The notes under the pieces: model-generated
What the model saw: only the letters and a program-made list of their open reading frames with translations
What the model was told of the DNA's origin: nothing
Database searches by the model: none
Translations under genes and position numbers: made by a program
Origin: Stackebrandtia albiflava
GTDB taxonomy: Bacteria > Actinomycetota > Actinomycetes > Mycobacteriales > Micromonosporaceae
NCBI RefSeq assembly: GCF_007994225.1
Contig: NZ_VLLL01000007.1
Location: 365,686 to 429,685, forward strand
DNA length: 64,000 nucleotides
Reading direction: 5' to 3'
In this document: one piece after another, positions 9,397-61,234 of the stretch
How positions within the stretch are numbered: position 1 is the first letter of the stretch
Layout of the letters: every line of letters begins with the position of its first letter

Positions 9397-9957
9397 TCAC
9401 TCCACCGCCTGGGCCAGCACCTCCAGTGCCTTGGCGACGTTCTCCGGCGGCTGGTCGCTGTTGCCCTCCCGCAGGATGCGGGTCGCCTCGGCGGCGAGCC
9501 CGCGCAGCCTGTCCCGTTCCGCCACTATGGACGCCATCCGCGCCACCTCCGACTTGGTGCGCTCCTTCATGCTCCACAGGTCGACGAATATCGACACCTT
9601 GGCGCGGAGCGCCCACGGATCGAACGGTTTGGTGATGTAGTCGACGGCCCCGGCGGCGTACCCGCGGAACGCCATGTGGGAGTCCTTGTCGGCGGCGGTC
9701 AGGAAGATGATCGGGGTGTGCCGGGTGGCCTCCCGCTGTTTGATGCGTTGCGCCGTCTCGAAGCCGTCCATGCCGGGCATCTGGGCGTCGAGCAGGATGA
9801 CCGCGAACTCCTCGGTGAGGAGTTTCTTCAACGCCCCCTCCCCGGACGTGACCGCCACCGTGGACACCGGCATGCCCTGCATGATCGCCTCGAGGGCCAC
9901 CAGGTTCTCCCGCCGGTCGTCGACCAGCAGCACCCTCGCCTGGCGTGTCCCGCTCAT
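9397..9957 (-). CDS. single-domain response regulator (REC)
   Basis: VLLVDD...D...LLDAQMPGMDG...K motifs of a receiver domain. The ATG overlaps the kinase stop. Confidence 0.8.
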   Translation of the reverse strand: MSGTRQARVLLVDDRRENLVALEAIMQGMPVSTVAVTSGEGALKKLLTEEFAVILLDAQMPGMDGFETAQRIKQREATRHTPIIFLTAADKDSHMAFRGYAAGAVDYITKPFDPWALRAKVSIFVDLWSMKERTKSEVARMASIVAERDRLRGLAAEATRILREGNSDQPPENVAKALEVLAQAVE

Positions 9958-47587: not shown

Positions 47588-48319
47588 TCACGCTCCATCG
47601 TGCACCACTCCACCCCCGCGCGGGGTGGACGACGCCGACACGGGGCAGGGCTCTCCGCGCGACCGAACGCCCCCACCCGCCGCGGGTAACTCCGAATGCC
47701 GGTGGCGCGGCACGGGTGCGTCCGAGTGCCGCCATCCCCTCGTGGTCATGCGGGTGCCGATGAAACCGCGCAGGCCGGCGGCGGCCCGCCTACCGGCGGA
47801 GTGCGGGGAGGACTCCGCGACGGCGGCGATCGCCGCCAGGACCGGGTCGGGCTGTCTACCGGCCAGGCTCGCGGCGCCGACCTGCCTGGCCCGCCGCGAC
47901 GTGTGCACGATGAGCACCCGGATCCGCTGCCCGTCGTTTCCGGTGGCCGACAGCACGTGTTGGTCGACCGGTACCAGGGCGGCGCCACGCAGGTATTCGA
48001 ATTCGAGGTCCGGCGTGTGCAACGGCAGTGACGCGATCCGGCCGTCGGCGAATCCGATGGAGATCCGGTCGGCGGTCAACAACTCCCAGCGTCGTCGGGG
48101 CCCACCGTCCCGCCGTGCGGCCTTGACCTCCTTGACGCCGTACCGGAGTCCCGCCGCGATCGCGAGCAGCAGCACCACCGCCGACGCCACGGCGAGCCAG
48201 ACGGGCAGACCGTTCTCCTCCACCAGGATGAACGGGACGACCGGCATCGGGCATCCGAGTACGAGGACGAGGATGCCGACGAGGTATCCCCGCACCCTGG
48301 ACGTGTGGTGGGCTCCCAT
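47588..48319 (-). CDS. membrane protein with two transmembrane helices plus a bacterial-PH-like domain (copy 2 of a tandem pair)
   Basis: A transmembrane hairpin, then RRWELLTADRISIGFADGRIASLPLH. Paralogous to 48330-49050. Confidence 0.5.
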   Translation of the reverse strand: MGAHHTSRVRGYLVGILVLVLGCPMPVVPFILVEENGLPVWLAVASAVVLLLAIAAGLRYGVKEVKAARRDGGPRRRWELLTADRISIGFADGRIASLPLHTPDLEFEYLRGAALVPVDQHVLSATGNDGQRIRVLIVHTSRRARQVGAASLAGRQPDPVLAAIAAVAESSPHSAGRRAAAGLRGFIGTRMTTRGWRHSDAPVPRHRHSELPAAGGGVRSRGEPCPVSASSTPRGGGVVHDGA

Positions 48320-48329
48320 CACTTCGGCG

Positions 48330-49050
48330 AGGTAGGTCAGGTACACGCCGTCATCCTGACGCGTAACGGCACGGAACCCGCACGAGTGCCGGGAGAGATC
48401 ACGTGCCGTCGACGGGAACCGGGTCAGGCGTGTTCCCAGCCGTTCGTGGTCACCCGGGTACCGATGAACCCGCGGAGGGCGGTGGCGGTCTGTCGCCCGG
48501 TGGGATGGGGGGGAACCGGCGGCCACGTTCGCGATCGCCGCCAGGACGTGGTCGGGTTGCCGAACCGGCGTCGTCATGTATCCCGACAGGGGGTTCCACC
48601 GTGGTGTGTTCACCGTCAGGACCTTCGCCGGCGTCCCCTCGTGATCGGTCGCGGCCAGTACGTACTGGTCGACCGGCATCCGGCCACCCGACAGATACTC
48701 ACACTGAGGTCGGCCGCGTGCAACGGCAACGACCGCACGGTGCCGTCGGCGAAGCCGATCTCGATGCGGTCGGCGTGCAGCCGTTCCCACTGCCGCGTCG
48801 GCTCGACGGCGCGCTTGGCGGCGTTCATCTTCTGGACGCCGTGCCAGGTCGCCGCCACGATCACCGACAGCAGCACCAGATTCACCAGTATGACCGCCCA
48901 GACCGGACGGACCTCCTCGGAGATCATGTAGAGCGGTATCGCGGGACCGAAGAGGAACCCGAGCATGAGAGGCATGAGAACGTATGACATCGCCTTCTCC
49001 CGGCGTTGGTGGTTCTCGTCGATCAGCGGACCCAGGTGAATGAGATACAT
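48330..49050 (-). pseudogene. Copy 1 of the tandem membrane-protein pair; it is frameshifted relative to copy 2
   Basis: The N-terminus (48616-49050) is in one frame and the homologous C-terminus continues in the frame of ORF 47588-49093. A 1-bp deletion lies near 48700 when aligned to copy 2. Confidence 0.45.
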
Positions 49051-49159: not shown

Positions 49160-49187
49160 TTGACGGCCATGGATGGCTCGATATCAT
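49160..49187 (+). promoter_or_regulatory. Candidate sigma70-type promoter for the peptide operon
   Basis: TTGACG-N16-TATCAT, 50 bp upstream of the ATG at 49237. Confidence 0.35.
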
Positions 49188-49236
49188 GTGCGACAGCGGC
49201 GCGCCTGCGCCGCATCGTCACGCAAGGGGTATGTGA

Positions 49237-49437
49237 ATGAAGCGCATCAACCGGATCGCGGACAAAGCACTGTCCAAACTGGTCGGCAAGTCGACCGCCA
49301 AGGCGTCCTGCGTCCCCTACTGGGAGTACTACTGCTCCTTCAACCCGGCCGTCTGCACCGGCGGCCACGCCAGATACCGCCGGTACATCACGGTCGACTG
49401 CACCGCCTGCTGCACCCAACACGTCGGCTGCTGCTGA
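49237..49437 (+). CDS. Cys-rich small peptide A (66 aa): conserved leader plus 8-Cys core; candidate RiPP/disulfide-rich precursor
   Basis: MKRINRIADKALSKLVGKSTAKA | SCVPYWEYYCSFNPAVCTGGHARYRRYITVDCTACCTQHVGCC. Strong GC3 bias. The RBS AAGGGG lies upstream. Confidence 0.7.
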   Translation: MKRINRIADKALSKLVGKSTAKASCVPYWEYYCSFNPAVCTGGHARYRRYITVDCTACCTQHVGCC

Positions 49438-49564
49438 CACGACGCACGACCCCGCACGCCGCCCTACCGGCGTGCCCCCACGACCCCCGGCAACGTCGCA
49501 CGCCGCCCTACCGGCGTGCTTCATCGCGACCCGCCCCCTGCAACGCATCACCCCGGGAGACACC

Positions 49565-49774
49565 ATGACACTCGTCAACCGCATCCACCGCGTCGCCGAC
49601 AAGGCCCTGTCGAAACTGGTCGGCGAATCGACCGCCAAGGCCGCGTGCGCACCGTACTGGCACTACTACTGCTCGTACAACCCGGCGATCTGCTCGGGCG
49701 GACACGTCCGGTACCGCAAGTACATCATGGGCACCTGCGACACCTGCTGCGTCGAATACGTCGGCTGCTGCTGA
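49565..49774 (+). CDS. Cys-rich small peptide B (69 aa), paralog of A
   Basis: MTLVNRIHRVADKALSKLVGESTAKA | ACAPYWHYYCSYNPAICSGGHVRYRKYIMGTCDTCCVEYVGCC. GGGAGA lies before the ATG. Confidence 0.7.
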   Translation: MTLVNRIHRVADKALSKLVGESTAKAACAPYWHYYCSYNPAICSGGHVRYRKYIMGTCDTCCVEYVGCC

Positions 49775-49910
49775 CCCGCGCCCACGGAGAGGGCCGCGAC
49801 CGCCGACCGTCACCGGGCGCGGACCCACAGCTCAACCCCATTGACGCGCACTTATTCCTCGATATGATCCCCCGGTGGTGCCGCCCTGCACCACTTCCGT
49901 CTATTCGAGG

Positions 49911-50117
49911 ATGGTCACTTTGAGTCTCATCAACCGCATCGCCGACAAGACGCTGTCCAAGCTGGTGGGAGAGGCCACGGCCAAGGCCGCCTGCTCGCCG
50001 TACTGGCAGACCTACTGCGTGCGCTCCGGCGTGTGCGCCAGCGGACACGCCAAGTACCGCCGGTACGTCAACGTCCACTGCGACACCTGCTGCCGCGAGT
50101 ACGTCGGCTGCTGCTGA
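49911..50117 (+). CDS. Cys-rich small peptide C (about 66-68 aa), paralog of A and B
   Basis: (MVT)LSLINRIADKTLSKLVGEATAKA | ACSPYWQTYCVRSGVCASGHAKYRRYVNVHCDTCCREYVGCC. The start is the ATG at 49911 or the TTG at 49920. Confidence 0.65.
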   Translation: MVTLSLINRIADKTLSKLVGEATAKAACSPYWQTYCVRSGVCASGHAKYRRYVNVHCDTCCREYVGCC

Positions 50118-50219
50118 CGAACGACCGCCGGGAGCGCCGCCACCACGGCCTCCCGGCCCTCGGGCACACCCGGCGCGCGACCGGAAGCCCACCGTGACGG
50201 GCCCGCCACCGGCACGGCG

Positions 50220-51125
50220 ATGTCGCATCGATGTGCCACTATCGTCGCCATGGCTCCCCCTCCGGCCGCGACGGCCGACGCAGACCTGGTGTGGCGCGAG
50301 GCCACCGACAAGTACCAGATAGCCCTCGACGGCGCGACCCTCGTATGCCGTAACGACAAGGGCAAACGCCTCAAATCGGTTCCCAAGGCGGTCCGCGACG
50401 GCGCCGTGGCGGAGGAACTGCTCGCGGTCCGCGACTTCCTGGAACGACACGAACGGCACTGTCACGCCACCGTCGAATCCTGGATGCTGGGCGCCCTCCC
50501 CATACCGGTGCCGCTGCTCCTGGAGATCTGGCCGGACCCCGCGTGGCGTCAGGCACTGGCCGACCTGGCGGTCGCGGAGGAACCGGGCGGCGAGCCCGGC
50601 CTGCTGCGGCAGATCGACGACGACGGCAGGATCGGTGTCGTCAACCTCGACGCCGAGACCGAGTGGATCGACGCCGAGCGCCTCTACATCCCGCATCCGG
50701 TGCTGCTTCCCGACCTGGACGACGTACGTGACTTCGCCGTGGAACTGGGTGTCTCTCAGCGGGTCCCGCAACTGGTCCGGGAGGTGTTCACCAAACCCGA
50801 CACCGTCGAGGGCAACAGCCTCGGACGGTACGGCGGCGGGGTCTTCGACGAGCTCCGCCAGGCCAAGGGCCGGGCGATCAAGTTCGGCTTCGGTGTCCGA
50901 GGCGGCTACGCCACCACCCACGCCACCGACGGCGGCACCGAACTCCAGGCGCGCTACTGGCTGGGCGACGACGGTCCCGACTACGAGGCGTACACCGGGG
51001 ACCTGCTGTGGGTGGACGACGACGAGCGTCCCGTCCCGTTGACCGACGTCGGACCGATCGCCTGGTCCGAGGGAGTGCGCATGGCCGAACTGATCTACGC
51101 CGGAAGGAAGACCGATGACGAGTGA
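50220..51125 (+). CDS. hypothetical protein (301 aa), coupled to the downstream giant gene
   Basis: Good GC3 bias. Its stop overlaps the next ATG (ATGACGAGTGA). No motif recognised. Confidence 0.55.
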   Translation: MSHRCATIVAMAPPPAATADADLVWREATDKYQIALDGATLVCRNDKGKRLKSVPKAVRDGAVAEELLAVRDFLERHERHCHATVESWMLGALPIPVPLLLEIWPDPAWRQALADLAVAEEPGGEPGLLRQIDDDGRIGVVNLDAETEWIDAERLYIPHPVLLPDLDDVRDFAVELGVSQRVPQLVREVFTKPDTVEGNSLGRYGGGVFDELRQAKGRAIKFGFGVRGGYATTHATDGGTELQARYWLGDDGPDYEAYTGDLLWVDDDERPVPLTDVGPIAWSEGVRMAELIYAGRKTDDE

Positions 51126-54100
51126 CGCCCTGCTGCGCGCCGGGTTGGCACCGTTGGACGCCCCCGACGGCATGCCCCTCCGCGCCCGCACCTACTCGCA
51201 CCCGGCGCTCGGCACGCGCCCGGTCGTCCGCCTCGCCGGCGACCAGGTCGCCGAGGCCGAGGACCGCACCCTGGAGTTCCTCGGCTTCACCGAACCGCGT
51301 ATCTCGGAACCGTTGGGACGCATCGTCGCCGGAGGCTCCGGATACCCCGCCTGGGCGTTGATCAACGATCCCGACAACGGCAGGTTGGCCCTGTCGGTCG
51401 TCCCCGACATGGAACGCGCCGCACGCAAGGCCGTGGCCTCGCCGCTGGACGCGCAGGCCGGATTCACGCAGATCGCGGCGAAACTGCCACAGACGCACCT
51501 TCCCTCCTTCTGGGAGCAGGCGGGCCGGGCGTTCCTCGACGCCGACCGCGCCCACTTCGCGGGCCAGATGTTCGGACGCGCCCGCGAGGTCGAACGCGTC
51601 CACGCGCTGCCAGTCGACGAGAACCTCCGCCGCGCGGTGTTCCTGGAGTTCGCGCTCGCCGGCGCCCTGTCGGTCAAGGCGCTCACCGAATACCTGAACG
51701 AGCTGACCAGCCGGTACGACCCCGACACCGCCGCCGACTCCTTCGAGTCGCTGACCCTGGGCAGGATCCGGGGCGGGCTGTCGCCCTGGGCCGACCTGCC
51801 CAAGCAGTGGCGGCGGCTCACCAAGTCCGCCGGGCGGGACTCGACCGCGGAGGAACGGCGACTGCTCGCGGAACTGCTCGACGCCGCCCCGATGCGGTCG
51901 GCGCCGGTGAAGTTCTGGCAACAGTGCCGGGCGTCGCTGGTGGCGCTGGGGCGTTCCGAGCCACGACACGCGCGCAGCCTGCTGTTCCTGTTCCCGCAGA
52001 CCAACGGACGCCAGGACGCCACCGCCGGGTTCTTCGAGTGGTGGCTGGACCTGCTCGACGACGCGGGCGCGTTGCGACTGCTCGCGGAGTCCGACGCCCC
52101 GGTGGAGTGGATGAACCGGGCGGTCGCGGAGCTGAAGGTCTCCGACCGCAGGCAGAGCGCCCCGCAGCGGCTGATCGACCTCGTGAAGGAGTTGGCGCCC
52201 CGGTTGACGGGCCTCGACCTGGGCTCCGAGCAGCGTCGGTACAACCCGCGGATCAACATGGACCTGCTCAGCGTGTGCCTGACGTCGGGCGTCGCGATCA
52301 AGGAACCCGACGCGAAGGCCCACCTGGGGCCGGGGGACTGGTACGCGTCGGCCAACACCGAGATCGACCCGATAGCGGCCGACCCGAGGTTCCGGCCCAT
52401 GCTGTACAGGGCGCTCGACCGGTTGGCCGGTCACGCCGAGGCGATACGCCACCCGAAGCTGCGGCCCGTCATCGAGGACTGGATCACCTCGCGGGCGGAA
52501 CGCACCGTGGACTGCGGCCTACTCGACCTCGACGCCGTGTTGCCGCTGTTCACGCACGTCGAACTCGAGTCCTTCCCCAAGGCGGACCGCGCGTTGATCG
52601 ACATCGACGTCGCCGAGACCCTGGCGCGTTCGCTGCGGGCGGGCCTGCCGGGCGAGCTGGGTTGGGCGGCCTTCGACGAGGCGGTGTCCGAACTGGACGG
52701 TCGGATCCGGATGACCGCGAGCTGGCCGATCCTGACCGTCTACAGTACCGAGAAGGCGATCGCGATCGGTCCGCAGGGCCGGATCGCCGAACACGAACTG
52801 CGATTCGCGGGCAAGCCGAGCCGGATCATCGTGACGTACTCCGACGACGCCTTCATGGTCGTGTGGAACGTCAGTTACAGCACCAACCACTTCTACTGGA
52901 GTCACGACCCCGCCCGGGTGGAGGAACTGAAGACCTCCTGGATCGGGGACCGCAGCGAGGACCAGGGCTACCACCTGCTGAACCCGCAGGGCAGGCTGCT
53001 CAGTCGCGGCGAGGTACTGCACCGCGGACAGGACACGCTGGAGGCGCAACGCTGGAAGGGCCTCACCGACGGCGAGACGTTCTGGTCGGCGGCGAACCAC
53101 TCGTGGGACGTCCACGAGATCGACCCCGCCACCGGTGAACTCGGACGGGTGTCGTTCCCGTCGTTCTTCGACGACGCGGAACGTCCGGCGGGTCACAAAT
53201 GGAGCATCACCTACAGCTCCCTCGTGGCGCTACCGGGCGGGATACCCGGGTCACCCTTGGGCAGTCGTGGGGACCTGATGGGGTTCCGTGTGTCCACGGG
53301 AGACGACGGGCACGCCATCACCGGCGTCGACGGCCGGCACGCCACGCTGCCGACCGGGCACTCGATACCGTGGGCGCTCATCGACATCCCCGGGGTCGAC
53401 TCACCCAGGATGCTCACCGGGACCGGCAGGAACCGGCTGGTGGACCCCCAGGGGCGGGCGCACTCGACGATCGGGATCGGCGGCAGGGAGGCGCCACCGA
53501 AGGCGTTCTGGCACTTCATGACGCCACGCGACCCGGAGTCGTCGAAGATCCTGCGGGACATCGACCGCGAGACGGCGTGGCGGCTCATCAAAGCCGCACA
53601 CGAGGACATCGAGACACGACGCGACGAGTCGGAGGACCGGAAACCGGCCCGGCTGGAGACCGAACTGTCCGAGGTGGGCATCACGCACGAGCGGATCCGC
53701 GACCACGTCGCCGCCGTGGTGCGCGAGGCCACCAGGATGGCGCGGAACCGCGAACTGATGCTGAAGCCCGAGAACGCACCCACGAAGTGGACACCGTCCA
53801 TCGACCGTCAGGGACTGTCCACCGGACTCTCCGGGCTCCGTCAGGGTGACAACGTGTACAACGACAACACCGCCGAGGTGTTCGAGGCACAGATCGGATT
53901 CCTGGCCGGCACCATCGGTTCCGACGACGCCGCGAAACACGCCTGGCAGAGATACGGCGACTGGACCGACCTGTTGGGCAGGTTCGCGGCCCTGGCGGTG
54001 CGCGCGGTCAGCCCCGCGTTCGACGAGTCGGCGCGGAACGCCCTGCGCCGGATGCTCACACTGGCGGCGGAGAGTCCCATCACCTCGGGCGACGTGAGGA

Positions 54101-55611
54101 TCGGCGCGATGACGTCAGGGGAGCACGTCGGCGTGCGGAACGCCGACGGTGCGCTGATCACGACGACGACGATCCGCGTCGACGGTGTCACCCACTACGT
54201 CTTCCTCGAGGTCGGCCGACCGGAACGGCCCGCCGTGTCCAACGAGTTGCGCGCCGTCACGACCGGTTGGGGTGCCTCCGCCAGGATCAAGGAGTTCCTG
54301 GCGGCCGTCGAGCGGCAACCGGTCGTGGAGGTCGATCCCGCGGCGGTGGCACTGCTGTCGGAACGGACCGGCATGAGCTCCGGGGCGGCGACGCTGCTCC
54401 TGACGGGGCTTCCCCGCGTCACCGTTTACGAGACGCACTTCCTGGACGCGGACACCCGGAAACGGCTCGGCCTGACGTCGGCGGCGGCGCAGTCCGGACG
54501 CGCCACCGTACGGAGACTGCGACAGGACGACGCCCTGGACTTCTACGAGGAGGTGTTGGGCGACGACCCGACGATCCTGTGGGACCAGCCCCGGTTCGCG
54601 GCGGGACTCGCGGAGGCGTGGGTGAAGCGGCACGGTCGTTCCGTCCCACTCTCCGAGGAGACCCGGGCCCAGGCCGACAAGATCGGGCTGTCCCACGGCG
54701 CCGACTCCGTACTGCGGTTCTTCACCGACGGCGACCGCGCGTTCTGTGACAAGAGCGGACTGCTCTCCCCGAGGGAACTGAACGACGTCCAACAGGCGGC
54801 GTGCTGGGCGTACGCGTCACTCCCGGAGGGCGACCCCGTGCGCGACGGGATCCCGCGCGCCCTGGCGGCCGCCCACGCGGACGTCGCCGACGAGTCGCAA
54901 CTGTTCGGGATCGGATACCTCGACGTGCCGGACGACCTGTTGAGCGAGGACGAGCGGCACATCGCGCAGTTGGGCCGCACCGCCTACGACGGTGGACTCG
55001 TCGTCGCCGAACAGCGGGGACGACGCCAGTCGAGGACGTACTTCCGGCCCGCCCGGTTGACCGACGACTCCGCCGGGACGGCGTTGCGCGCCATCGACTA
55101 CACCGGCGTCGTCCGGCTGGTCGACTGGTTCCGCAGCCCGGACGCGGCGGACATCGCGGCCCGGATCGGGAAGATCCCGGCGGGCCGGTACGAAGCCGAC
55201 CCGCGTGCCTCGGTACCGCACCTGGTGGCGGAGGCACGCGACGACCTCGGCCTGTCCGAGGAGGCCGCGACCCTCTACCTGCAACTGCTGGCCCTGCCCG
55301 AACCCACCGACCGCAACGTCCGCACCTGGAACGGGTGGACCCCGGCACGGCACAAGAAGGCGATCGCCGAGTTGCTGGAGAAGGAACTGGTCGTCGCCGC
55401 CAAACGGTCCCGTGCCGGGCGTGGCGTGTTCCTCCCCGGCGGCTGGCAGGACCTCAAGGCGCCCGCCAAGCCGCGTGAGACCTGGAAGGAGCCGCTCTAC
55501 CCGGCGCCGCCGACCAGCTACTACGCCTCGTCGCCGCTGGTGAACCGGCCGTTGACGGAACTGTTCACCCAGGCGTGGCGGCGTCACACCTCGGGAGAGG
55601 GACCCCGGTGA
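51115..55611 (+). CDS. giant hypothetical protein (1498 aa), paralog 1
   Basis: Uninterrupted ORF, collinear similarity to 55608-60167 along the full length. No catalytic motif recognised. Confidence 0.7.
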   Translation: MTSDALLRAGLAPLDAPDGMPLRARTYSHPALGTRPVVRLAGDQVAEAEDRTLEFLGFTEPRISEPLGRIVAGGSGYPAWALINDPDNGRLALSVVPDMERAARKAVASPLDAQAGFTQIAAKLPQTHLPSFWEQAGRAFLDADRAHFAGQMFGRAREVERVHALPVDENLRRAVFLEFALAGALSVKALTEYLNELTSRYDPDTAADSFESLTLGRIRGGLSPWADLPKQWRRLTKSAGRDSTAEERRLLAELLDAAPMRSAPVKFWQQCRASLVALGRSEPRHARSLLFLFPQTNGRQDATAGFFEWWLDLLDDAGALRLLAESDAPVEWMNRAVAELKVSDRRQSAPQRLIDLVKELAPRLTGLDLGSEQRRYNPRINMDLLSVCLTSGVAIKEPDAKAHLGPGDWYASANTEIDPIAADPRFRPMLYRALDRLAGHAEAIRHPKLRPVIEDWITSRAERTVDCGLLDLDAVLPLFTHVELESFPKADRALIDIDVAETLARSLRAGLPGELGWAAFDEAVSELDGRIRMTASWPILTVYSTEKAIAIGPQGRIAEHELRFAGKPSRIIVTYSDDAFMVVWNVSYSTNHFYWSHDPARVEELKTSWIGDRSEDQGYHLLNPQGRLLSRGEVLHRGQDTLEAQRWKGLTDGETFWSAANHSWDVHEIDPATGELGRVSFPSFFDDAERPAGHKWSITYSSLVALPGGIPGSPLGSRGDLMGFRVSTGDDGHAITGVDGRHATLPTGHSIPWALIDIPGVDSPRMLTGTGRNRLVDPQGRAHSTIGIGGREAPPKAFWHFMTPRDPESSKILRDIDRETAWRLIKAAHEDIETRRDESEDRKPARLETELSEVGITHERIRDHVAAVVREATRMARNRELMLKPENAPTKWTPSIDRQGLSTGLSGLRQGDNVYNDNTAEVFEAQIGFLAGTIGSDDAAKHAWQRYGDWTDLLGRFAALAVRAVSPAFDESARNALRRMLTLAAESPITSGDVRIGAMTSGEHVGVRNADGALITTTTIRVDGVTHYVFLEVGRPERPAVSNELRAVTTGWGASARIKEFLAAVERQPVVEVDPAAVALLSERTGMSSGAATLLLTGLPRVTVYETHFLDADTRKRLGLTSAAAQSGRATVRRLRQDDALDFYEEVLGDDPTILWDQPRFAAGLAEAWVKRHGRSVPLSEETRAQADKIGLSHGADSVLRFFTDGDRAFCDKSGLLSPRELNDVQQAACWAYASLPEGDPVRDGIPRALAAAHADVADESQLFGIGYLDVPDDLLSEDERHIAQLGRTAYDGGLVVAEQRGRRQSRTYFRPARLTDDSAGTALRAIDYTGVVRLVDWFRSPDAADIAARIGKIPAGRYEADPRASVPHLVAEARDDLGLSEEAATLYLQLLALPEPTDRNVRTWNGWTPARHKKAIAELLEKELVVAAKRSRAGRGVFLPGGWQDLKAPAKPRETWKEPLYPAPPTSYYASSPLVNRPLTELFTQAWRRHTSGEGPR

Positions 55612-58600
55612 GTGCGGCCCGGACGGACGCCCCGGACACCGGCGACGCGCTGCTGCGCGCCGGGATGGCACCGGTGGACTCCGAGGAGGGGGAGCCGGTC
55701 CGCGCCCGCGGCTACCGGCACCCCGCACTGGGTGGCCGCCCAGTCGTCCGGCTGGTCGCGGAACGGTTGGGTGAGGCCGAGGACCGCACCCTCGGCTTCC
55801 TGGGCTTCACCGCGCCGACCGTCTCGCCGCCGGTGGCGCGCGGCGTCACCGGCGGCGTCGGATACCCCGCGTGGGCGCTGATCAACGACCCCGCCAACGG
55901 GAGACTCGCGCTGTCGGTCATCCCCGATATGGAGTTCGCGGCCCGCAAGGCCGTCGCCTCACCGAGCACCGCCCACCTGACACTGCTGGACGTCGCCGAC
56001 CGGCTTCCCGCCGGGCACCTCCCCGCATTCTGGGAGGAGGCGGGGAGGATCTTCCTGCGCGCCGACCGCTCCCACTACACGGTGCAGTACTTCGGGAAGG
56101 CCAGGGAGGCGGAGCGGCGGCACGCGCTACCGGTAGACGAGGCGACCCTGCAGGCCGTGTACCTGGAGTTCGCGCTGGCGGGCGCGCTGTCGGTGAAGGC
56201 GTTGACCGAGTACCTCGACGAGCTGTCGCGGCGTTACGCGCCGGACGAGGCGCTGGCGAAGTTCGAGTCGCTGGCGTTCGGCCGGATCAGGGCGGGGCTG
56301 GCGCCGTGGTCGACGATGCACGCGCAGTGGCGGCGACTCGTCAAGGCGACCGGACGCGACGCGGACGCCGAGGCACGGCGGCTGCTCACCGAACTGTTCG
56401 ACGCCCCGGCGTTGCGGTACGCGCCGGTGAAGTTCTGGGAGGTGTTCCGGCCCGCGCTGGTGGCGCTCGGTCGTTCCGACGAGCGGCACGCCCGGACGAT
56501 CCTGCACCTGTTCCCGAGGTACTCCGACAACGACCGGGACGCGCACACGTTCACCACGTGGTGGCTGGAACTGTTGGACGAGATCGGGGCGTTCCGGCTG
56601 TTGGACGATCCGGGGCACGCCCGCTCCTGGCTCCACCGGATGATCGGTCAGCTCAAGGTGTCGGACCGCCGGGACAGCGCACCGCCCCGGCTGCTGGCGC
56701 TCGTGGAGGAGCTGGCTCCCCGGCTCACCGGAGTGGACCTGTCCGCCGGAACCGACTGGTACGTCAACCGCGTCAACATCGACCTGTTGAGCACCTTCCT
56801 GAGGCTGGGTGTTCCGGTCGCCGACCCGGTGAAGAACGCCAGGCTGGACGTGACCGACTGGATCGCGACCGCCCGGACCGATCTGGCCCCGGTGGTGACC
56901 GACCCGCGTTTCCGGGAACTGTTGTACACCGAACTGGACAGGCTGGCGGTCGGTCCCGAGACGTTGCGGCACCGCCGGTTGCGTCCGGTGGTGGGCGGCT
57001 GGCTGGTCGATCGCGCCACCCGCGCCGAGGGCGGCGGGCTGCTCGATCTGGAAGCCTCCATGAAGTTGTTCGAGCACATCTCGTTGGACGAGCAACCGGA
57101 GGCGCGGCGGGCGCTGGCCGACATGGATCCGGTGGAACGGCTGCGCCGGTCGCTGCGCGCGGGAACACCCGCCGAGCTCGGCTGGCCGGCGTTCGACGAA
57201 GCCGTGTCCGAACTGGGCGGCCGGGTGGAGATGATCCCGAGCTGGCCGATCCTGACCGTCTACAACGGAGTGAAGGCGATCGCCGTCGGTCCGGAGGGCA
57301 GGGTGGCCGAGCACGCGCTGCAGACGTCGGCCGGACCGGACCGGACCGTCGTCGCCTACGCCGACGGCGCGTTCATCGTCGCGTGGAAGGCCGGCCGGGA
57401 GTACCACCACTACTGGAGCCACGACCCGTCCCGGGTCGCGCCGCTGGCGAACTCCTGGCTCTCCACGCACATCCAGGGCATGGGGTTCACCCCGCTCACC
57501 TCGGACGGCACCCGCCTCACCGAGGGCACCGCGCTGCGCCGGGGCGACGACCGGATCAACGACAACGACGACGTCCTCAGCGACGGGGAACGCTTCTGGA
57601 TCGGGCAGTGGGAGTCCGGAAGCGTCCGCTTCCGGGAGGTGGACCCGCAGACCGGCAAGGTCGGTGGTCACTCGACTCCCGCGTTCTTCGACGACGCGGC
57701 CCTACCCGACGGGCACTGGTGGCTGGTCCACGTGAACTCGCTGGCGGCGCTCCCCGAGGCCGTCGCCGCGGAATCGCCACTGGGACACGACGGCGGGCTG
57801 GTGGGGTTCCGGGCGTCCGCGAACGGGAAGACCACCGTGATCACCGGCGTCGACGGCCGCACCGCGACACTCCCGTCCGACCGGGACTCGCCGTGGGGAC
57901 TGCTCGACATCCCCGGCCACGACACCCCCAGGATCATGACCGGCACCGGTTTCGTGAACCTGATCGGCCCCGACGGTGCCCTGCACTGGGCGGTGGCCAC
58001 CGGCACCGCGACCACCCCGCCGGCCGCCTTCTGGCACTTCACGTCCCCGCGCGACCCCGAGGGGTCGAAGGCACTACGGGACGTCGACACGCCGACGGTG
58101 GAACGACTCGTCACCGCCCTCACCGAGGACAGGGCGGCCGTGGACTCCGGCGCGGAACCGAAGGGCACCACCGCCCGGACGGACGCCGTACTCACCGACA
58201 TCGGCATCCGGCATCCGGTGCTGCGGGAGGCCGTCACCGACATGACCCGGCGCGCGGTGGGACTGCGGGACCAACGCGAACGGCTGCTGTCGGCCGGGCG
58301 GTCGACGGTGGGCCGGCCCCCGGCGATCGACCGAACCGGTCTCGCCGAGGGACTGTCGGGCCTGGTCACCTCCGGCCGGCCCGCCCAGTACGACCGGACG
58401 GCCGACCAGCTCACGGCACAACTGGACTTCCTCGCCGAGCGGATCGACGGCCCCACCACGCTGGCCGCGCTGCGTTACCACTCCACCGACTGGACGCCGC
58501 TGCTCGGCAACCTGGCCGCCCTGGCGGTCCGCGCGGTGAGCGTCGCCTACGACGACACGGTCCGCGACACGCTGCGACGGCTGCTGGGACTACTCGCCGA

Positions 58601-60167
58601 CGGTCCGGCGACCACGGGGGTCCTGCGGCGCGGAACGATGGTCACCGGCGGCGCCGTCGCGCACCGCGACCCGGGTGGCGCCCTGGTCACCGTCGACTCC
58701 GTGTACCGGGACGGCCAGCGGCATCACCGGTTCATCGAACTGGGTGACCCGCGACGCCCCGCCACCGCCACCGCCGTCCACACCGTCCCGGTCGGGTGGG
58801 GTTCACCCGACCGGATCGCGGAGTTCCTCGCGGCGGCGGAGCGTCGGCCCGTGGTGCCGCCGGATCCGAAGGCGGTCGCGATCCTCTCGGAGCGGACCGG
58901 TCTCAACGGGTCCGCCGCGCTCCTGCTGCTGACGGGACTGCCCGGCATCGAGGTGTACGAGTCGGACTTCCTGGGCCCGGAGGGGCGGGAACGGTTGGGC
59001 CTGAAGACGACCACCGCCAAGGCGGGCCGGATGGCCTTCGACGGGATGACCCGCGGCGACCGGCTCGCACTGTACGAGGCCGCGCTCGGTGAGGACGCGA
59101 CGGTCCTGTGGGACCCGCCCCGGTTCGCCGCACGGCTCGCGGACGCCTGGGTCGCCCGGTACGGCCGCCGCATTCCACTGTCCGAAGAGGTCATCCTGGC
59201 CGCCGACCGGCTGGAGCTCCACAACGGCACCGAGTCGGTGTTGAGGTACCTGACGGAAGTGGGGCGGGAGCCCGACGCCGAGGCGCCGGCGGCCGCCCCT
59301 CCGTTGGGCGACGCGGACGGCCTGTTGACCGTCATGGAACTCCTGGACCTGCGACGGGTGGTCAGCTGGGCGTACACCGCGCTGCCGGAGGGCGATCCGG
59401 TCCGGGACGGCGTTCCGCGCGTACGGGAGGCGGTCCTCGCCTCGCTCGCCGACGATCGTCCACTATGGGATATCGGCGGTCACTCGGCGGCACGGTTCCC
59501 CCGGGAACTGCTGGGCGACGAACCGTACTGGGACCAGGCCCTCGGCCGGAAGGTCCACGACGGCGGCCTGTTCGTCGCCGTCGAGGAACAGGACTGGTTC
59601 CGCGTGTACTTCCGGCCCGCCCGTCTCACCGACGACGCGGCCGGCGCCACCCTGCGGGCCCTGGACGACATGCACTACACGACCCTCATCGACTGGTGGC
59701 GGGGACCGGACCCGGTGGCGCTCGCCGCCCGGATAGGCTCCCTCCCGCCCGGTCGGTACGAATGCGACCCACGGGCGTCGGTGCCGGAACTGGTGGACGA
59801 GGTGCGATCCACTCTGGACCTCTCCGAGGACGCCGCGACCCTGTACCTGCAACTGCTCACCCTGCTCGACCCCACCGACCGGCACGTCCGCACCTGGAAC
59901 GACTGGACGCCCGCCCGGCACAAGAAGGCGGTCGCCGCACTGCTGGAAGCGGAACTCGTCGTCGCCGCCAAACGGTCCCGTGCCGGGCGCGACGTCTTCC
60001 TACCCGGCGGCTGGGGCACCGCGAAGGCACCCGAGGTGCCGTCCGAGACATGGAAGGATCCGATGTACCCGGTGTTCGACTCGATACCACGTTCGGTGAC
60101 CCGGCCGCTGCCGGAACTGTTCGCGCACGCATGGCGGCGTCACACCTCGGGGGAGGGACCACGATGA
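55608..60167 (+). CDS. giant hypothetical protein (about 1520 aa), paralog 2
   Basis: The GTG overlaps the paralog-1 stop as GTGA. N-terminus SAARTDAPDTGDALLRAGMAPVD aligns to MTSDALLRAGLAPLD; the two are about 50-60% identical by eye. Confidence 0.7.
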   Translation: MSAARTDAPDTGDALLRAGMAPVDSEEGEPVRARGYRHPALGGRPVVRLVAERLGEAEDRTLGFLGFTAPTVSPPVARGVTGGVGYPAWALINDPANGRLALSVIPDMEFAARKAVASPSTAHLTLLDVADRLPAGHLPAFWEEAGRIFLRADRSHYTVQYFGKAREAERRHALPVDEATLQAVYLEFALAGALSVKALTEYLDELSRRYAPDEALAKFESLAFGRIRAGLAPWSTMHAQWRRLVKATGRDADAEARRLLTELFDAPALRYAPVKFWEVFRPALVALGRSDERHARTILHLFPRYSDNDRDAHTFTTWWLELLDEIGAFRLLDDPGHARSWLHRMIGQLKVSDRRDSAPPRLLALVEELAPRLTGVDLSAGTDWYVNRVNIDLLSTFLRLGVPVADPVKNARLDVTDWIATARTDLAPVVTDPRFRELLYTELDRLAVGPETLRHRRLRPVVGGWLVDRATRAEGGGLLDLEASMKLFEHISLDEQPEARRALADMDPVERLRRSLRAGTPAELGWPAFDEAVSELGGRVEMIPSWPILTVYNGVKAIAVGPEGRVAEHALQTSAGPDRTVVAYADGAFIVAWKAGREYHHYWSHDPSRVAPLANSWLSTHIQGMGFTPLTSDGTRLTEGTALRRGDDRINDNDDVLSDGERFWIGQWESGSVRFREVDPQTGKVGGHSTPAFFDDAALPDGHWWLVHVNSLAALPEAVAAESPLGHDGGLVGFRASANGKTTVITGVDGRTATLPSDRDSPWGLLDIPGHDTPRIMTGTGFVNLIGPDGALHWAVATGTATTPPAAFWHFTSPRDPEGSKALRDVDTPTVERLVTALTEDRAAVDSGAEPKGTTARTDAVLTDIGIRHPVLREAVTDMTRRAVGLRDQRERLLSAGRSTVGRPPAIDRTGLAEGLSGLVTSGRPAQYDRTADQLTAQLDFLAERIDGPTTLAALRYHSTDWTPLLGNLAALAVRAVSVAYDDTVRDTLRRLLGLLADGPATTGVLRRGTMVTGGAVAHRDPGGALVTVDSVYRDGQRHHRFIELGDPRRPATATAVHTVPVGWGSPDRIAEFLAAAERRPVVPPDPKAVAILSERTGLNGSAALLLLTGLPGIEVYESDFLGPEGRERLGLKTTTAKAGRMAFDGMTRGDRLALYEAALGEDATVLWDPPRFAARLADAWVARYGRRIPLSEEVILAADRLELHNGTESVLRYLTEVGREPDAEAPAAAPPLGDADGLLTVMELLDLRRVVSWAYTALPEGDPVRDGVPRVREAVLASLADDRPLWDIGGHSAARFPRELLGDEPYWDQALGRKVHDGGLFVAVEEQDWFRVYFRPARLTDDAAGATLRALDDMHYTTLIDWWRGPDPVALAARIGSLPPGRYECDPRASVPELVDEVRSTLDLSEDAATLYLQLLTLLDPTDRHVRTWNDWTPARHKKAVAALLEAELVVAAKRSRAGRDVFLPGGWGTAKAPEVPSETWKDPMYPVFDSIPRSVTRPLPELFAHAWRRHTSGEGPR

Positions 60168-61234
60168 ACCGTCAGGTCGAACCCGCGGAGGTGAGGTACG
60201 CCGCCGAACTGGCGCTGCTCGCCGAGGAGAGCGGCCCGCGTCCACCCGGATGGCGCCTGACCCCCTCGGCCGTCGTCACGTTCATCATGGGCGACGGAGG
60301 CCGGATCAGCGGCAAGTTCCTCGGCGACCGCGCCCTGGTGGAACGCGCCGTCATCACACTGGCGGGCCGCCGCGGCCTGCTGCTGGTGGGGGAACCGGGT
60401 ACCGCGAAGTCGATGCTGTCGGAGCTGTTGACGGCCGCGATCAGCGGCGACAGCTCCCGCACCGTGCAGGGCAGCGCGGGCACCCACGAGGAGCAGTTGC
60501 GGTACGGCTGGAACTACCAGCTCCTGTTGGCGAAGGGACCGTCGGCGGAGGCACTGGTGCCCTCGCCGATCCTGTCGGCCATGCGCGCCGGGGCGGTCGC
60601 CCGGATCGAGGAGGTGACCCGCTGCCTCCCCGAGGTGCAGGACGCCCTGGTGTCGGTGCTGTCGGAACGCCACATGTCGGTCCCCGAGCTGGGTGAGACC
60701 GAGTACGCCGTCGACGGCTTCAACGTGATCGCCACCGCCAACCTGCGCGACCGGGGCGTCAACGAGATGAGCGCCGCCCTGAAGCGCCGGTTCAACTTCG
60801 AGGTCATCGAACCCATCGGGTCGCTGGAGGCCGAGACCGCCCTGGTGAAGCGGGAGGCGATGCGCACCATCACGGGCGGCAACGCACCGGCCGAAGTGGA
60901 CGACGCGGTGGTCGAGGCGCTGGTGACGGTGTTCCGCGACCTGCGGCAGGGCCGCACGGTCGAGGGCTGGCCGGTGGAACGGACCACCGCCGTCCTCAGC
61001 ACCGCCGAGGCGGTCGCGGTCGCCGGTTCGCTGGGCCTCCAGTCGGCGTACTTCTCCGTCGGCGACCCGGTGTCGCTACTGCCGGGGCACCTGCTCGGCG
61101 TCGCCAGGAAGGACGATCCCGCCGACCAGGCCAAACTCGTCGGGTACTGGGATTCCACGATCCGGCGTCGGGCCGAGGGCGGCGCCCGGTTGTGGAAACG
61201 GCTCTACGAGCTCCGGCACGTCGTCGGCGAGTGA
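60164..61234 (+). CDS. MoxR-like AAA+ ATPase (CbbQ/NirQ/NorQ/GvpN-type)
   Basis: Walker A GEPGTAKS, Walker B/sensor ARIEEV...VIATANL, and ALKRRF. The ATG overlaps the upstream stop as ATGA. Confidence 0.85.
   Translation: MNRQVEPAEVRYAAELALLAEESGPRPPGWRLTPSAVVTFIMGDGGRISGKFLGDRALVERAVITLAGRRGLLLVGEPGTAKSMLSELLTAAISGDSSRTVQGSAGTHEEQLRYGWNYQLLLAKGPSAEALVPSPILSAMRAGAVARIEEVTRCLPEVQDALVSVLSERHMSVPELGETEYAVDGFNVIATANLRDRGVNEMSAALKRRFNFEVIEPIGSLEAETALVKREAMRTITGGNAPAEVDDAVVEALVTVFRDLRQGRTVEGWPVERTTAVLSTAEAVAVAGSLGLQSAYFSVGDPVSLLPGHLLGVARKDDPADQAKLVGYWDSTIRRRAEGGARLWKRLYELRHVVGE

What the first reader, a model, noticed from the sequence alone, without database searches (positions are those of the whole stretch)
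49237..50117. Three tandem paralogous 8-cysteine small proteins with a conserved amphipathic leader
All three share the leader (M)xxINRIADKxLSKLVGxxTAKA and the core C-x-PYW-x-YC-x5-6-C-x-GH-x-YRxY-x3-C-x-CC-x-YVGCC. They have no signal peptide, strong coding bias and their own RBSs. This architecture (a leader plus a Cys/aromatic-rich core in tandem copies) is typical of RiPP precursors or disulfide-rich bacteriocins. No radical-SAM, LanB/LanM or other known maturase is nearby, which suggests either an unrecognised maturation route (perhaps the giant proteins) or a non-RiPP role such as metal binding.
Basis: seen in the sequence. Interest (0 to 1): 0.75.

Follow-up and report, generated by a model that had tools for sequence, protein, structure and literature searches.

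The report
Orphan precursors of secreted disulfide-rich peptides
Three neighbouring small genes in Stackebrandtia albiflava are real and most likely encode precursors of secreted peptides held together by four disulfide bonds, and their probable export, cutting and folding machinery (a four-gene cassette common in actinomycetes but never studied experimentally) lies elsewhere in the genome.

Summary
Three tandem paralogous genes (49237-49437, 49565-49774, 49920-50117, + strand) encode 66, 69 and 65 aa proteins. Each has a Cys-free amphipathic leader ending in AxA and an 8-Cys, aromatic-rich core.

They are coding: GC3 is 0.91-0.95 and dN/dS is 0.38-0.50 (leader 0.15-0.19, core 0.5-0.9).

They match no Pfam or NCBIfam family. 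They do belong to a family of 57-83 aa actinomycete peptides with the same leader and variable cores. All 44 members compiled have an even Cys count (6, 8 or 10).

In seven loci from other actinomycetes, such a peptide gene sits beside part or all of a conserved cassette:
- MauE, a DsbB-like disulfide generator with a CxC motif
- a MauD/ResA-like membrane-anchored thioredoxin with CxxC
- an ABC exporter without a peptidase domain
- an S26 signal-peptidase-like protease

The window lacks this cassette. S. albiflava carries it on another contig, next to a fourth peptide with the same leader.

Best reading: the three genes are precursors served in trans, that is exported, cut after AxA and oxidised to about 4.8-4.9 kDa peptides. 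The giant neighbouring proteins and a metal-binding role are not supported.

decRiPPter (2020) flagged the cassette type computationally. The peptides' biological activity is unknown.

The parts
49160..49187 (+). Promoter-like site for copy 1 (TTGACG, 16 nt, TATCAT)
   Evidence: 10 of 12 matches; 2 sites found in the region against 0.1 expected in shuffles. The TTGACG...GATAnnAT arrangement recurs upstream of homologs in other organisms.
49196..49213 (+). Small GC-rich inverted repeat (GCGGCGC/GCGCCGC) in the 5' untranslated region of copy 1
   Evidence: A GGCGC...GCGCC hairpin occupies the same place in 7 homologous upstream regions, but only 1 pair shows a compensatory change. Its role is unknown (mRNA 5' hairpin or operator).
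49224..49229 (+). Ribosome-binding site of copy 1 (AAGGGG)
   Evidence: Read from the sequence; 7 nt before the ATG.
49237..49305 (+). Copy 1 leader: MKRINRIADKALSKLVGKSTAKA (23 aa, no Cys, ends AxA)
   Evidence: The leader-only HMM gives E=1.4e-12. AlphaFold predicts a helix at residues 4-17 with low confidence.
49306..49437 (+). Copy 1 core, 43 aa, 8 Cys, plus stop codon. Predicted mature peptide 4876.972 Da (monoisotopic, 4 disulfides).
   Evidence: AlphaFold gives core pLDDT above 90 and three beta strands.
49453..49519 (+). Two identical 23-nt direct repeats (49453-49475 and 49497-49519) between copies 1 and 2. Each forms an 8-bp GC hairpin.
   Evidence: z = -2.2. Possibly terminator or attenuator hairpins without a T-run. 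No promoter is predicted for copy 2.
49555..49559 (+). Ribosome-binding site of copy 2 (GGGAG)
   Evidence: Read from the sequence; 5 nt before the ATG at 49565.
49565..49642 (+). Copy 2 leader: MTLVNRIHRVADKALSKLVGESTAKA (26 aa)
   Evidence: leader-only HMM E=1.1e-12.
49643..49774 (+). Copy 2 core, 43 aa, 8 Cys, plus stop codon. Predicted mature peptide 4899.948 Da with 4 disulfides.
49776..49822 (+). GC-rich hairpin after copy 2
   Evidence: -28 kcal/mol, z = -1.8. Terminator-like but without a T-run.
49841..49868 (+). Promoter-like site for copy 3 (TTGACG, 16 nt, TATGAT)
   Evidence: 10 of 12 matches.
49874..49895 (+). Inverted repeat in the 5' untranslated region of copy 3 (GGTGGTGC/GCACCACT)
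   Evidence: It carries the one compensatory change relative to the GGCGC/GCGCC version.
49907..49911 (+). Ribosome-binding site of copy 3 (GAGGA)
   Evidence: Read from the sequence; 8 nt before the TTG at 49920.
49920..49988 (+). Copy 3 leader: (M)SLINRIADKTLSKLVGEATAKA (23 aa, TTG start)
   Evidence: NCBI annotates 65 aa; leader-only HMM E=4.8e-11.
49989..50117 (+). Copy 3 core, 42 aa, 8 Cys, plus stop codon. Predicted mature peptide 4787.968 Da with 4 disulfides.
50122..50162 (+). GC-rich hairpin after copy 3

Best explanation
The three genes encode precursors of small secreted peptides cross-linked by disulfide bonds. Each precursor has a 23-26 residue, Cys-free, amphipathic N-terminal leader that is not a Sec signal. 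The leader ends in Ala-x-Ala, one residue before the first Cys. The core is 42-43 residues with 8 Cys.

Proposed pathway (inferred from gene association, not shown experimentally):
1. The leader directs the precursor to a dedicated homodimeric ABC exporter that has no peptidase domain.
2. A membrane-anchored S26 (signal-peptidase-I-like) protease removes the leader after AxA.
3. A membrane-anchored MauD/ResA-like thioredoxin (CxxC) introduces or shuffles four disulfides. It is re-oxidised by the membrane protein MauE (CxC), a DsbB-like enzyme.

These four genes are not in the window. In S. albiflava they form one cassette on another contig, next to a fourth precursor with the same leader. The three window genes are therefore extra substrates served in trans.

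The products would be 4.79-4.90 kDa, aromatic-rich, neutral to slightly basic peptides with a three-stranded beta-sheet core.

Their biological activity is not established. The conserved leader, fast-evolving core, tandem amplification and patchy distribution fit a bacteriocin-like or other competition peptide best. That last step is a guess, at about 35% confidence.
For: Shown:
- The genes are real and under purifying selection, strongest on the leader (dN/dS: leader 0.15-0.19, core 0.5-0.9).
- A profile search of 1.84 billion proteins finds 27 cluster representatives at E<=0.001. All but two are small peptides (57-83 aa) with the same leader and variable Cys-rich cores.
- 44 of 44 compiled members have an even Cys count (6, 8 or 10) and none has Cys in the leader. 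AxA lies 0-2 residues before the first Cys in 42 of 44.
- One relative (P0007) loses one Cys of the CC pair and gains one elsewhere, keeping 8.
- The peptide gene lies beside Trx, ABC and S26 genes, plus MauE on every contig long enough to show it:
  - L006, metagenome; its peptide is 72% identical to copy 2. This 4.8-kb contig shows the thioredoxin, ABC and S26 genes but no MauE.
  - Microbispora hainanensis.
  - Asanoa hainanensis.
  - Actinoplanes hulinensis.
  - Streptomyces cyanogenus and Nocardiopsis dassonvillei.
- The ABC proteins of these cassettes are 45-48% identical across genera.
- S. albiflava has the full cassette on contig BAABIJ010000005.1, with a 58-aa, 8-Cys peptide immediately upstream. 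The leader-only HMM matches that peptide at E=2.3e-7.
- Ca. Stackebrandtia excrementipullorum has the cassette with no adjacent precursor and an orphan precursor on another contig.
- Catalytic motifs are intact: CxC in every MauE, CxxC in every thioredoxin, and SM.P/KR/GD..S.DS in every S26. The S. albiflava S26 scores 48.8 bits on TIGR02227, cutoff 47.
- The ABC protein is a 622-aa MsbA/HlyB-type half transporter. Its alignments give no room for a C39 peptidase domain.
- The leaders lack a hydrophobic core.
- AlphaFold with 22 sequences gives core pLDDT of about 90-93 with three beta strands.

From papers:
- MauE homologs can replace DsbB in E. coli, and CxC is their active site (bioRxiv 10.64898/2026.03.05.709764).
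- decRiPPter listed 'MauE' candidate RiPP families in Streptomyces with precursors of at least 8 Cys. The leaders listed there (e.g. LSSRLLGLFVPKVEAAASAQAC) match this pattern (PMC7794033).
Against: - No cassette gene lies in the 64-kb window (tblastn). The link rests on leader similarity and on co-occurrence in two Stackebrandtia genomes.
- No experiment shows that the ABC protein exports these peptides, that the S26 protease cuts at AxA, or that the Cys are oxidised.
- The ABC protein also resembles CydDC-type thiol exporters (E about 1e-49). It could set the redox balance rather than carry the peptide.
- The topology of the thioredoxin is uncertain. Its transmembrane segment is followed by RRLR and has no N-terminal positive charges, which by the positive-inside rule could place the domain in the cytoplasm.
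- No immunity gene is recognisable, and no antimicrobial activity is known.
- In Stackebrandtia the cassette sits in a conserved housekeeping neighbourhood (gatB...ilvD/ilvBNC). That could point to a physiological role rather than competition.
Confidence: 0.65

Rival explanations
1. True RiPPs. Besides leader removal and disulfides, the cores carry further covalent modifications, such as thioethers, C-terminal aminovinyl-cysteine from the terminal CC, or aromatic cross-links. The enzymes would be encoded elsewhere or not yet recognised.
For: - The leader/core architecture is present.
- The C-terminal CC recalls epidermin-type lantibiotics (own knowledge).
- decRiPPter ranked the cassette type as a candidate RiPP class (PMC7794033).
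- In Actinoplanes hulinensis, a ThiF-like gene and an unknown 399-aa gene follow the peptide gene.
Against: - No radical-SAM, LanB/C/M, YcaO, P450, flavoprotein decarboxylase or MNIO gene occurs in the window or in any of the cassettes examined.
- Ser and Thr are not conserved in the core.
- The strictly even Cys count is what disulfides predict.
- The ThiF-like neighbour is not conserved elsewhere.
Confidence: 0.12
2. The peptides are made and secreted independently of the MauE-Trx-ABC-S26 cassette, by another exporter or an atypical Sec route. The shared leader then reflects common ancestry only.
For: - The genes are at least tens of kb from the cassette, on a different contig.
- Other orphan loci have unrelated ABC or MFS transporters within 10 kb (L001 and L011).
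Against: - The leader is the most constrained part of the genes.
- The leader matches the cassette-linked peptide of the same genome.
- The leader has no hydrophobic core for Sec.
- The neighbouring transporters are not conserved between loci.
- In Ca. S. excrementipullorum the cassette has no precursor of its own within 10 kb, and the genome encodes an orphan one.
Confidence: 0.1
3. Cytoplasmic metal-binding or redox-buffering small proteins (metallothionein-like or iron-sulfur). The N-terminal amphipathic helix would be a membrane- or partner-binding element that is never cleaved.
For: - Eight Cys and one invariant His lie in about 40 residues, with CC and CxxCC motifs.
- There is no Sec signal.
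Against: - An even Cys count in 44 of 44 members, despite changes in number and position, is not required for metal sites.
- The cores vary greatly in Cys spacing.
- The aromatic-rich composition is unusual for metallothioneins (own knowledge).
- A conserved AxA lies just before the first Cys.
- The family is repeatedly adjacent to an exporter, a leader-type peptidase and a disulfide-forming pair.
- There is no Pfam, NCBIfam or PDB sequence match to any metal-binding family.
Confidence: 0.06
4. Decaying or silent gene copies: duplicated relics of a cassette-linked precursor that are no longer expressed or used.
For: - They are detached from the cassette.
- A related metagenomic locus carries a second copy with an in-frame TAA at the conserved Trp codon (L007, L008, L009).
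Against: - All three reading frames are intact.
- dN/dS is below 1, and the leader is at 0.15-0.19.
- GC3 is 0.91-0.95.
- Promoters and ribosome-binding sites are good.
- The upstream promoter and hairpin layout is conserved across species.
Confidence: 0.05

Closest known systems
decRiPPter 'MauE' candidate RiPP families in Streptomyces (Kloosterman et al. 2020, PMC7794033)
   Same: The kind of leader is the same: (L)xxRL(V/L)P/G...AxA just before the first Cys. The precursors are Cys-rich (at least 8 Cys) and associated with MauE, in one family also MauD. I found the same operon, precursor-MauE-Trx-ABC-S26, in S. cyanogenus and N. dassonvillei.
   Different: Those families are computational candidates only, with no product or mechanism. 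Their precursors are encoded in cis. Here three tandem paralogs are detached from the cassette. The core is a distinct subfamily (PYW...GHxxYRRY...CxxCC...VGCC) restricted, as far as found, to Stackebrandtia and a few metagenomic relatives.
Class II (unmodified, disulfide-containing) bacteriocins such as pediocin PA-1, with the PedD ABC exporter and the PedC thioredoxin-like accessory protein (own knowledge)
   Same: A ribosomal peptide with an N-terminal leader that is not a Sec signal, a dedicated ABC exporter, and a dedicated thiol-disulfide oxidoreductase for correct disulfide pairing.
   Different: The leader here ends in AxA, not Gly-Gly. The ABC exporter has no C39 peptidase domain. Cleavage is assigned to a separate S26 protease. 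A MauE disulfide generator is part of the cassette. The hosts are high-GC actinomycetes.
Lantibiotic NisT/NisP division of labour (own knowledge)
   Same: An ABC exporter without a protease domain exports the leader-bearing precursor, and a separate membrane-anchored extracellular protease removes the leader.
   Different: NisP is a subtilisin-like protease, not S26. Nisin carries lanthionine rings made by NisB and NisC, and no such enzymes are present here.
MauE/MauD maturation of the methylamine dehydrogenase small subunit (six disulfides), and MauE as a DsbB substitute (bioRxiv 10.64898/2026.03.05.709764)
   Same: The pairing is the same: a MauE membrane protein with a CxC motif and a membrane-anchored CxxC thioredoxin acting on a small Cys-dense substrate.
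   Different: No other mau genes are present. The substrate is a 42-43-aa peptide rather than an enzyme subunit, and there is no tryptophan tryptophylquinone cofactor. The thioredoxin scores far below the MauD cutoff (32.6 against 188.6 bits).
NiSOD propeptide removal by SodX, an S26 peptidase (own knowledge)
   Same: An S26-family peptidase removes a short N-terminal propeptide that is not a Sec signal, directly before a Cys-containing mature N-terminus. The S. albiflava S26 hits the SodX model TIGR02754 at E=3e-10 (below cutoff).
   Different: SodX acts on a cytoplasmic enzyme. The resemblance I recall between the SodN propeptide and this leader was not tested here.
QhpC, the gamma subunit of quinohemoprotein amine dehydrogenase (own knowledge, not tested)
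   Same: A small Cys-rich polypeptide with a leader that is not a Sec signal, exported by a dedicated ABC transporter (QhpF) after leader-dependent processing.
   Different: QhpC needs a radical-SAM enzyme (QhpD) for thioether cross-links and a subtilisin-like protease (QhpE). Neither is present here.

Membership tests
Actinomycete leader-bearing Cys-rich peptide family linked to MauE-Trx-ABC-S26 cassettes (decRiPPter 'MauE' candidates) | Conserved Cys-free N-terminal leader with the D-x-x-L-x-(K/R)-L-V-(G/P) motif, ending in AxA 0-2 residues before the first Cys | tested here: met
   Alignments. AxA position. Leader-only HMM gives E=1e-11 to 1e-12 for the three genes and 2.3e-7 for the cassette-linked peptide of the same genome. 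The decRiPPter precursors show the same pattern (by eye).
Actinomycete leader-bearing Cys-rich peptide family linked to MauE-Trx-ABC-S26 cassettes (decRiPPter 'MauE' candidates) | Short core (about 32-48 aa) with an even number (6, 8 or 10) of Cys | tested here: met
   8 Cys in each of the three cores. 44 of 44 family members have an even count.
Actinomycete leader-bearing Cys-rich peptide family linked to MauE-Trx-ABC-S26 cassettes (decRiPPter 'MauE' candidates) | Gene adjacent to MauE, thioredoxin-fold, ABC exporter and S26 peptidase genes | tested here: not met
   No cassette gene is in the window (tblastn; gene list). Adjacency holds for the closest metagenomic relative (L006; MauE not on that short contig) and for more distant members. 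The cassette exists in the same genome on another contig. Membership here is by sequence and in trans, not by adjacency.
Actinomycete leader-bearing Cys-rich peptide family linked to MauE-Trx-ABC-S26 cassettes (decRiPPter 'MauE' candidates) | Export, leader cleavage and disulfide formation actually depend on the cassette | not testable with these tools
   Needs genetics and mass spectrometry.
RiPPs in the strict sense (lanthipeptides, sactipeptides/ranthipeptides, thiopeptides, bufferins and others) | A class-defining modifying enzyme (LanB/C/M/KC/L, radical SAM, YcaO, MNIO/DUF692, P450, HFCD decarboxylase) encoded with the precursor | tested here: not met
   None appears among the Pfam assignments of the window neighbours or of any cassette locus.
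Double-glycine-leader bacteriocins (class II, C39-ABC exported) | Leader ending in GG, GA or GS, and an ABC exporter with an N-terminal C39 peptidase domain | tested here: not met
   The leaders end in AKA. The associated ABC proteins are 611-640 aa. Their MsbA and HlyB alignments start at residues 93 and 156, and no C39 hit appears.
Sec-dependent secreted proteins | Signal peptide with a hydrophobic core of about 7-15 residues before the AxA site | tested here: not met
   The longest purely hydrophobic run is 3 residues and the maximum Kyte-Doolittle mean over 9 residues is 0.42-0.54. No SignalP-type predictor was available.
Bacterial metallothioneins or Cys-rich metal-binding proteins | Sequence or profile match to a metal-binding family, and a cytoplasmic location without processing | tested here: not met
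   No Pfam, NCBIfam or PDB sequence match. Location is not testable here. The family context argues for export.
Known disulfide-rich mini-protein folds (defensins, knottins, hevein-like and others) | Structural similarity of the core to a solved member | tested here: not met

The most novel reading that the evidence does not exclude
The leader and the MauE-Trx-ABC-S26 cassette together define an uncharacterised, dedicated secretion and oxidative-folding pathway of Actinomycetota that does not use Sec. It would combine leader-guided ABC export, an S26 peptidase acting as a private leader peptidase, and a private MauE/MauD-like disulfide relay. It would serve several fast-evolving mini-proteins encoded both beside the cassette and far from it. 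The Stackebrandtia peptides would then represent a new four-disulfide beta-sheet fold with an unknown, possibly antimicrobial or antifungal, activity.
Probability: 0.45. Interest if true: 0.75.

Novelty: new variant of a known kind. Interest (0 to 1): 0.6.

Why it matters
If the model holds, many actinomycetes have a compact private route for making disulfide-rich secreted peptides, distinct from Sec/DsbA-type folding and from classical bacteriocin export. ABC orthologs at 50-68% identity occur in Streptomyces, Nocardiopsis, Nonomuraea, Micromonospora and other genera.

Three things would follow:
- MauE homologs in actinomycetes would gain a physiological substrate class.
- S26 peptidases would be shown to act as dedicated leader peptidases.
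- A family of stable, roughly 4-5 kDa, hypervariable mini-proteins would open up for activity screening and as scaffolds.

The Stackebrandtia case also shows that precursors can lie far from their machinery. Genome-mining tools that rely on adjacency would miss them. A leader HMM would find them.

Tried and rejected
- Pfam and NCBIfam scans of the three peptides gave no hit even at E<=1. A PDB sequence profile search gave nothing meaningful (best E 1.4).
- Rfam found nothing for the intergenic regions.
- I tested whether neighbours are conserved next to homologs. An all-against-all BLAST of six-frame ORFs from the window and seven loci showed only the peptides shared, plus generic ABC ATPase similarity. 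Direct comparison of the downstream DUF4132 protein with downstream proteins in L001 and L005 showed no similarity. The 'giant proteins as maturases' idea was therefore dropped.
- PADLOC and NCBIfam found nothing for the DUF4132 protein or the giant proteins.
- The first AlphaFold run, with 6 close sequences, was uninformative (pLDDT 56, all-helical). A 22-sequence alignment gave a confident core.
- Fold searches against the PDB found no relative. The AlphaFold-database library was not available.
- The first attempt at search for related loci failed because no block was conserved enough. The second found only one GTDB species, Ca. S. excrementipullorum.
- The conserved 5' UTR hairpin showed only one compensatory pair, so I make no RNA-structure claim.
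- My first dN/dS run used start coordinates off by one for copies 2 and 3 and was redone.
- Literature searches for an experimental study of the cassette found only decRiPPter and the 2026 MauE preprint. A search on SodX and SodN gave nothing usable.
- Disulfide connectivity could not be derived.
Full report
**1. The observation**

The window is 70% G+C. Exact protein matches identify it as Stackebrandtia albiflava, an actinomycete of the Glycomycetales; NCBI names the products LX16_4238 and LX16_4239.

Three tandem ORFs lie on the + strand:
- 49237-49437 (ATG, 66 aa)
- 49565-49774 (ATG, 69 aa)
- 49920-50117 (TTG, 65 aa)

They are 63-70% identical, and 35 columns are invariant, including all eight Cys. 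GC content at codon position 3 is 0.91-0.95, against 0.45-0.51 at position 1. dN/dS between the paralogs is 0.38-0.50. Each gene has a Shine-Dalgarno-like sequence.

Copies 1 and 3 are preceded by strong sigma-70-like promoters: TTGACG, 16 nt, then TATCAT or TATGAT. Two such sites were found where shuffles give 0.1. Copy 2 has no predicted promoter. It follows two identical 23-nt hairpin repeats. GC-rich hairpins follow each gene.

These are real genes.

**2. What the proteins look like**

The first 23-26 residues are Cys-free, strongly amphipathic and charged. They have no hydrophobic core, so they are not Sec signal peptides. They end in Ala-Lys-Ala, one residue before the first Cys.

The remaining 42-43 residues hold 8 Cys, 6-8 aromatic residues and an invariant Gly-His. 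Among the three paralogs the leader is much more constrained (dN/dS 0.15-0.19) than the core (0.5-0.9).

**3. Relatives**

No Pfam, NCBIfam or PDB sequence match exists.

A search of 5.8 billion proteins found only four other close homologs, all from metagenomes. A scan of one genome for each of 185,579 species found one, in Candidatus Stackebrandtia excrementipullorum.

A full HMMER profile search of 1.84 billion cluster representatives widened this to 27 representatives at E<=0.001. All but two (a frameshifted ORF call and an unrelated 654-aa repeat protein) are 57-83 aa. They share the leader M(K/R)L(I/V)..(I/V)N..AD(K/R)xL.(K/R)LVG...AxA and have variable Cys-rich cores, most ending in GCC. 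A second indexed search added members from Microbispora, Asanoa and Actinoplanes.

I compiled 44 members, including three Streptomyces sequences from the literature. Every one has an even number of Cys (6, 8 or 10). None has Cys in the leader. AxA lies 0-2 residues before the first Cys in 42 of 44. One relative swaps the position of a Cys and keeps eight.

Even counts maintained through gains and losses are what fully disulfide-bonded secreted peptides predict. Metal sites or lanthionines would not require them.

**4. Genomic context: the key result**

Around the closest homologs the neighbours differ, and nothing in the window recurs elsewhere. This rules out the giant downstream proteins as conserved partners.

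A four-gene cassette does recur beside family members. It is present in L006 (metagenome, peptide 72% identical to copy 2; this 4.8-kb contig shows three of the four genes and no MauE), Microbispora hainanensis, Asanoa hainanensis and Actinoplanes hulinensis. Its genes are:
- a membrane-anchored thioredoxin-fold protein of about 175 aa
- an ABC exporter of about 615 aa
- an S26 peptidase of about 150 aa
- a MauE-family membrane protein of about 170 aa

The ABC proteins are 45-48% identical across these genera.

The window contains none of these genes. Searching with the L006 ABC protein shows that S. albiflava has an ortholog (68% identity), as does Ca. S. excrementipullorum.

In S. albiflava the ortholog lies on another contig (BAABIJ010000005.1; the trio is on BAABIJ010000003.1). 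There it sits in the order: 58-aa peptide, MauE, thioredoxin, ABC, S26.

That 58-aa peptide is MKHLNRIGDAMLARLVPTTEAAAA|PCPCSSRCCFKYDSRLWCWTDGTGCAIVSCSTSC. It has 8 Cys and the same leader. A leader-only HMM matches it at E=2.3e-7. In the window, that HMM matches only the three genes.

In Ca. S. excrementipullorum the cassette has no adjacent precursor, and the genome's one family member is an orphan on another contig. The same operon, precursor first, is present in Streptomyces cyanogenus and Nocardiopsis dassonvillei. ABC orthologs at 50-60% identity are common across actinomycete genera.

**5. The cassette proteins**

- Every MauE homolog has the CxC motif (CAC or CRC).
- Every thioredoxin-fold protein has an N-terminal membrane segment and CxxC.
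- Every S26 protein has the Ser (SM.P) and Lys (KR) motifs and the GD..S.DS box of signal peptidase I.

NCBIfam gives these matches for the S. albiflava proteins:
- The S26 protein passes the signal peptidase I model (48.8 bits, cutoff 47). It hits the NiSOD maturation protease model at E=3e-10.
- The thioredoxin hits ResA and MauD weakly.
- The ABC protein looks like MsbA/HlyB-type half transporters and has no C39 peptidase domain.

A 2026 preprint shows that MauE homologs replace DsbB in E. coli and that CxC is the active site (10.64898/2026.03.05.709764).

**6. Mechanism**

Inferred steps:
1. The leader targets the precursor to the ABC exporter.
2. The S26 protease cuts after AxA.
3. The thioredoxin, re-oxidised by MauE, forms or shuffles four disulfides.

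The expected products are 4876.972, 4899.948 and 4787.968 Da.

What is shown is the sequence family, the parity rule, the gene association and the intact motifs. What is inferred is who exports, who cuts and who oxidises, and that the three detached genes use the cassette in trans.

Caveats:
- The ABC protein also resembles CydDC thiol exporters.
- The topology of the thioredoxin is ambiguous by the positive-inside rule.

**7. Function of the mature peptides**

This is unknown. A conserved leader, fast-evolving core, tandem copies and patchy distribution resemble bacteriocins and other secreted toxins. The aromatic-rich surface could bind cell-wall polymers.

No immunity gene is evident. In Stackebrandtia the cassette lies in a conserved housekeeping region. 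I put about 35% on an antimicrobial or competition role.

**8. Comparison with what is known**

The nearest prior description is computational. decRiPPter listed three 'MauE' candidate RiPP families in Streptomyces, with precursors of at least 8 Cys (PMC7794033). The precursors in its S2 table have the same leader pattern. I found no experimental study.

Functionally the system works like disulfide-containing class II bacteriocins (leader, ABC exporter, thioredoxin-like helper). It also resembles NisT/NisP, where the exporter and the leader protease are separate. Its parts differ, however: an AxA leader, an S26 peptidase and a MauE/MauD-like pair.

It fails the defining tests for several classes (membership table):
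- strict RiPP classes, because no modifying enzyme is present
- double-glycine bacteriocins
- Sec substrates
- metallothioneins

**9. Verdict**

The finding is real and moderately interesting. The three genes are detached members of an uncharacterised but widespread actinomycete family of leader-bearing, disulfide-rich peptides, and their likely machinery is encoded in trans.

The giant-protein and metal-binding ideas are not supported.

- Novelty: a new variant of a known kind (leader-directed, ABC-exported, disulfide-stabilised ribosomal peptides).
- Interest: 0.6.

Noticed in passing
window 50220-61234 (+): Immediately downstream lie four genes: a DUF4132 protein (301 aa), two giant tandem paralogs (1498 and 1530 aa, 53% identical), and an AAA-type (MoxR/GvpN-like) ATPase. 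The giants have no Pfam, NCBIfam or PADLOC match. The module is unrelated to the peptides by conservation, and its function is unknown.
   Followed up: partly
window 47588-49050 (- strand): Two paralogous membrane proteins with two predicted transmembrane segments and no Pfam family are transcribed divergently from copy 1. The copy nearest the peptides (called as 144 aa, 48616-49050) matches its paralog in three pieces across two reading frames (about 49023-48700, 48700-48503 and 48510-48451). It therefore appears disrupted by two frameshifts. No homolog occurs at other peptide loci.
   Followed up: partly
window 49453-49519: A perfect 23-nt direct repeat (CGCACGCCGCCCTACCGGCGTGC, 44 nt apart) lies between copies 1 and 2. 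Each copy forms an 8-bp hairpin. The role is unclear: attenuator, terminator or duplication scar.
   Followed up: partly
window 49160-49236 and 49841-49919; L001, L006, L007, L011 upstream regions: The upstream regions of family genes from different organisms share a layout: ATTGACG, 16-17 nt, TCGATAnnAT, a short GGCGC/GCGCC inverted repeat, then AGGA. This suggests common regulation. Only one compensatory base-pair change was seen, so an RNA hairpin and a protein operator cannot be told apart.
   Followed up: partly
L007 988-1201 (also L008, L009): A second tandem family copy in a metagenomic relative has an in-frame TAA exactly where the conserved Trp codon should be (…CSPF*ETYC…). It appears in three independent assemblies. 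It is probably a pseudogene.
   Followed up: no
L012 (Microbispora hainanensis) 6409-12159: This locus holds two precursor genes with related leaders. It also has duplicated thioredoxin and S26 genes, one S26 being split into two ORFs, plus one MauE and one ABC gene. The cassette has been partly duplicated and is partly decaying.
   Followed up: no
L017 (S. albiflava) 7111-12523 and L019 (Ca. S. excrementipullorum): The cassette lies in a syntenic housekeeping region (gatA/gatB ... ilvD, ilvB/N/C) in both Stackebrandtia species. It is preceded by a BNR/sortilin-like protein and a ThiS/MoaD-like small protein. In Ca. S. excrementipullorum the S26 protein carries a long Lys/Ala-rich C-terminal tail (286 aa).
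   Followed up: no
P0018 (139 aa; same DNA region as L011 9363-9569): One database entry for the Ca. S. excrementipullorum gene is a 139-aa ORF. It starts with the correct leader and then runs off-frame. This is most likely a frameshifted assembly or gene call, not a real longer protein.
   Followed up: no
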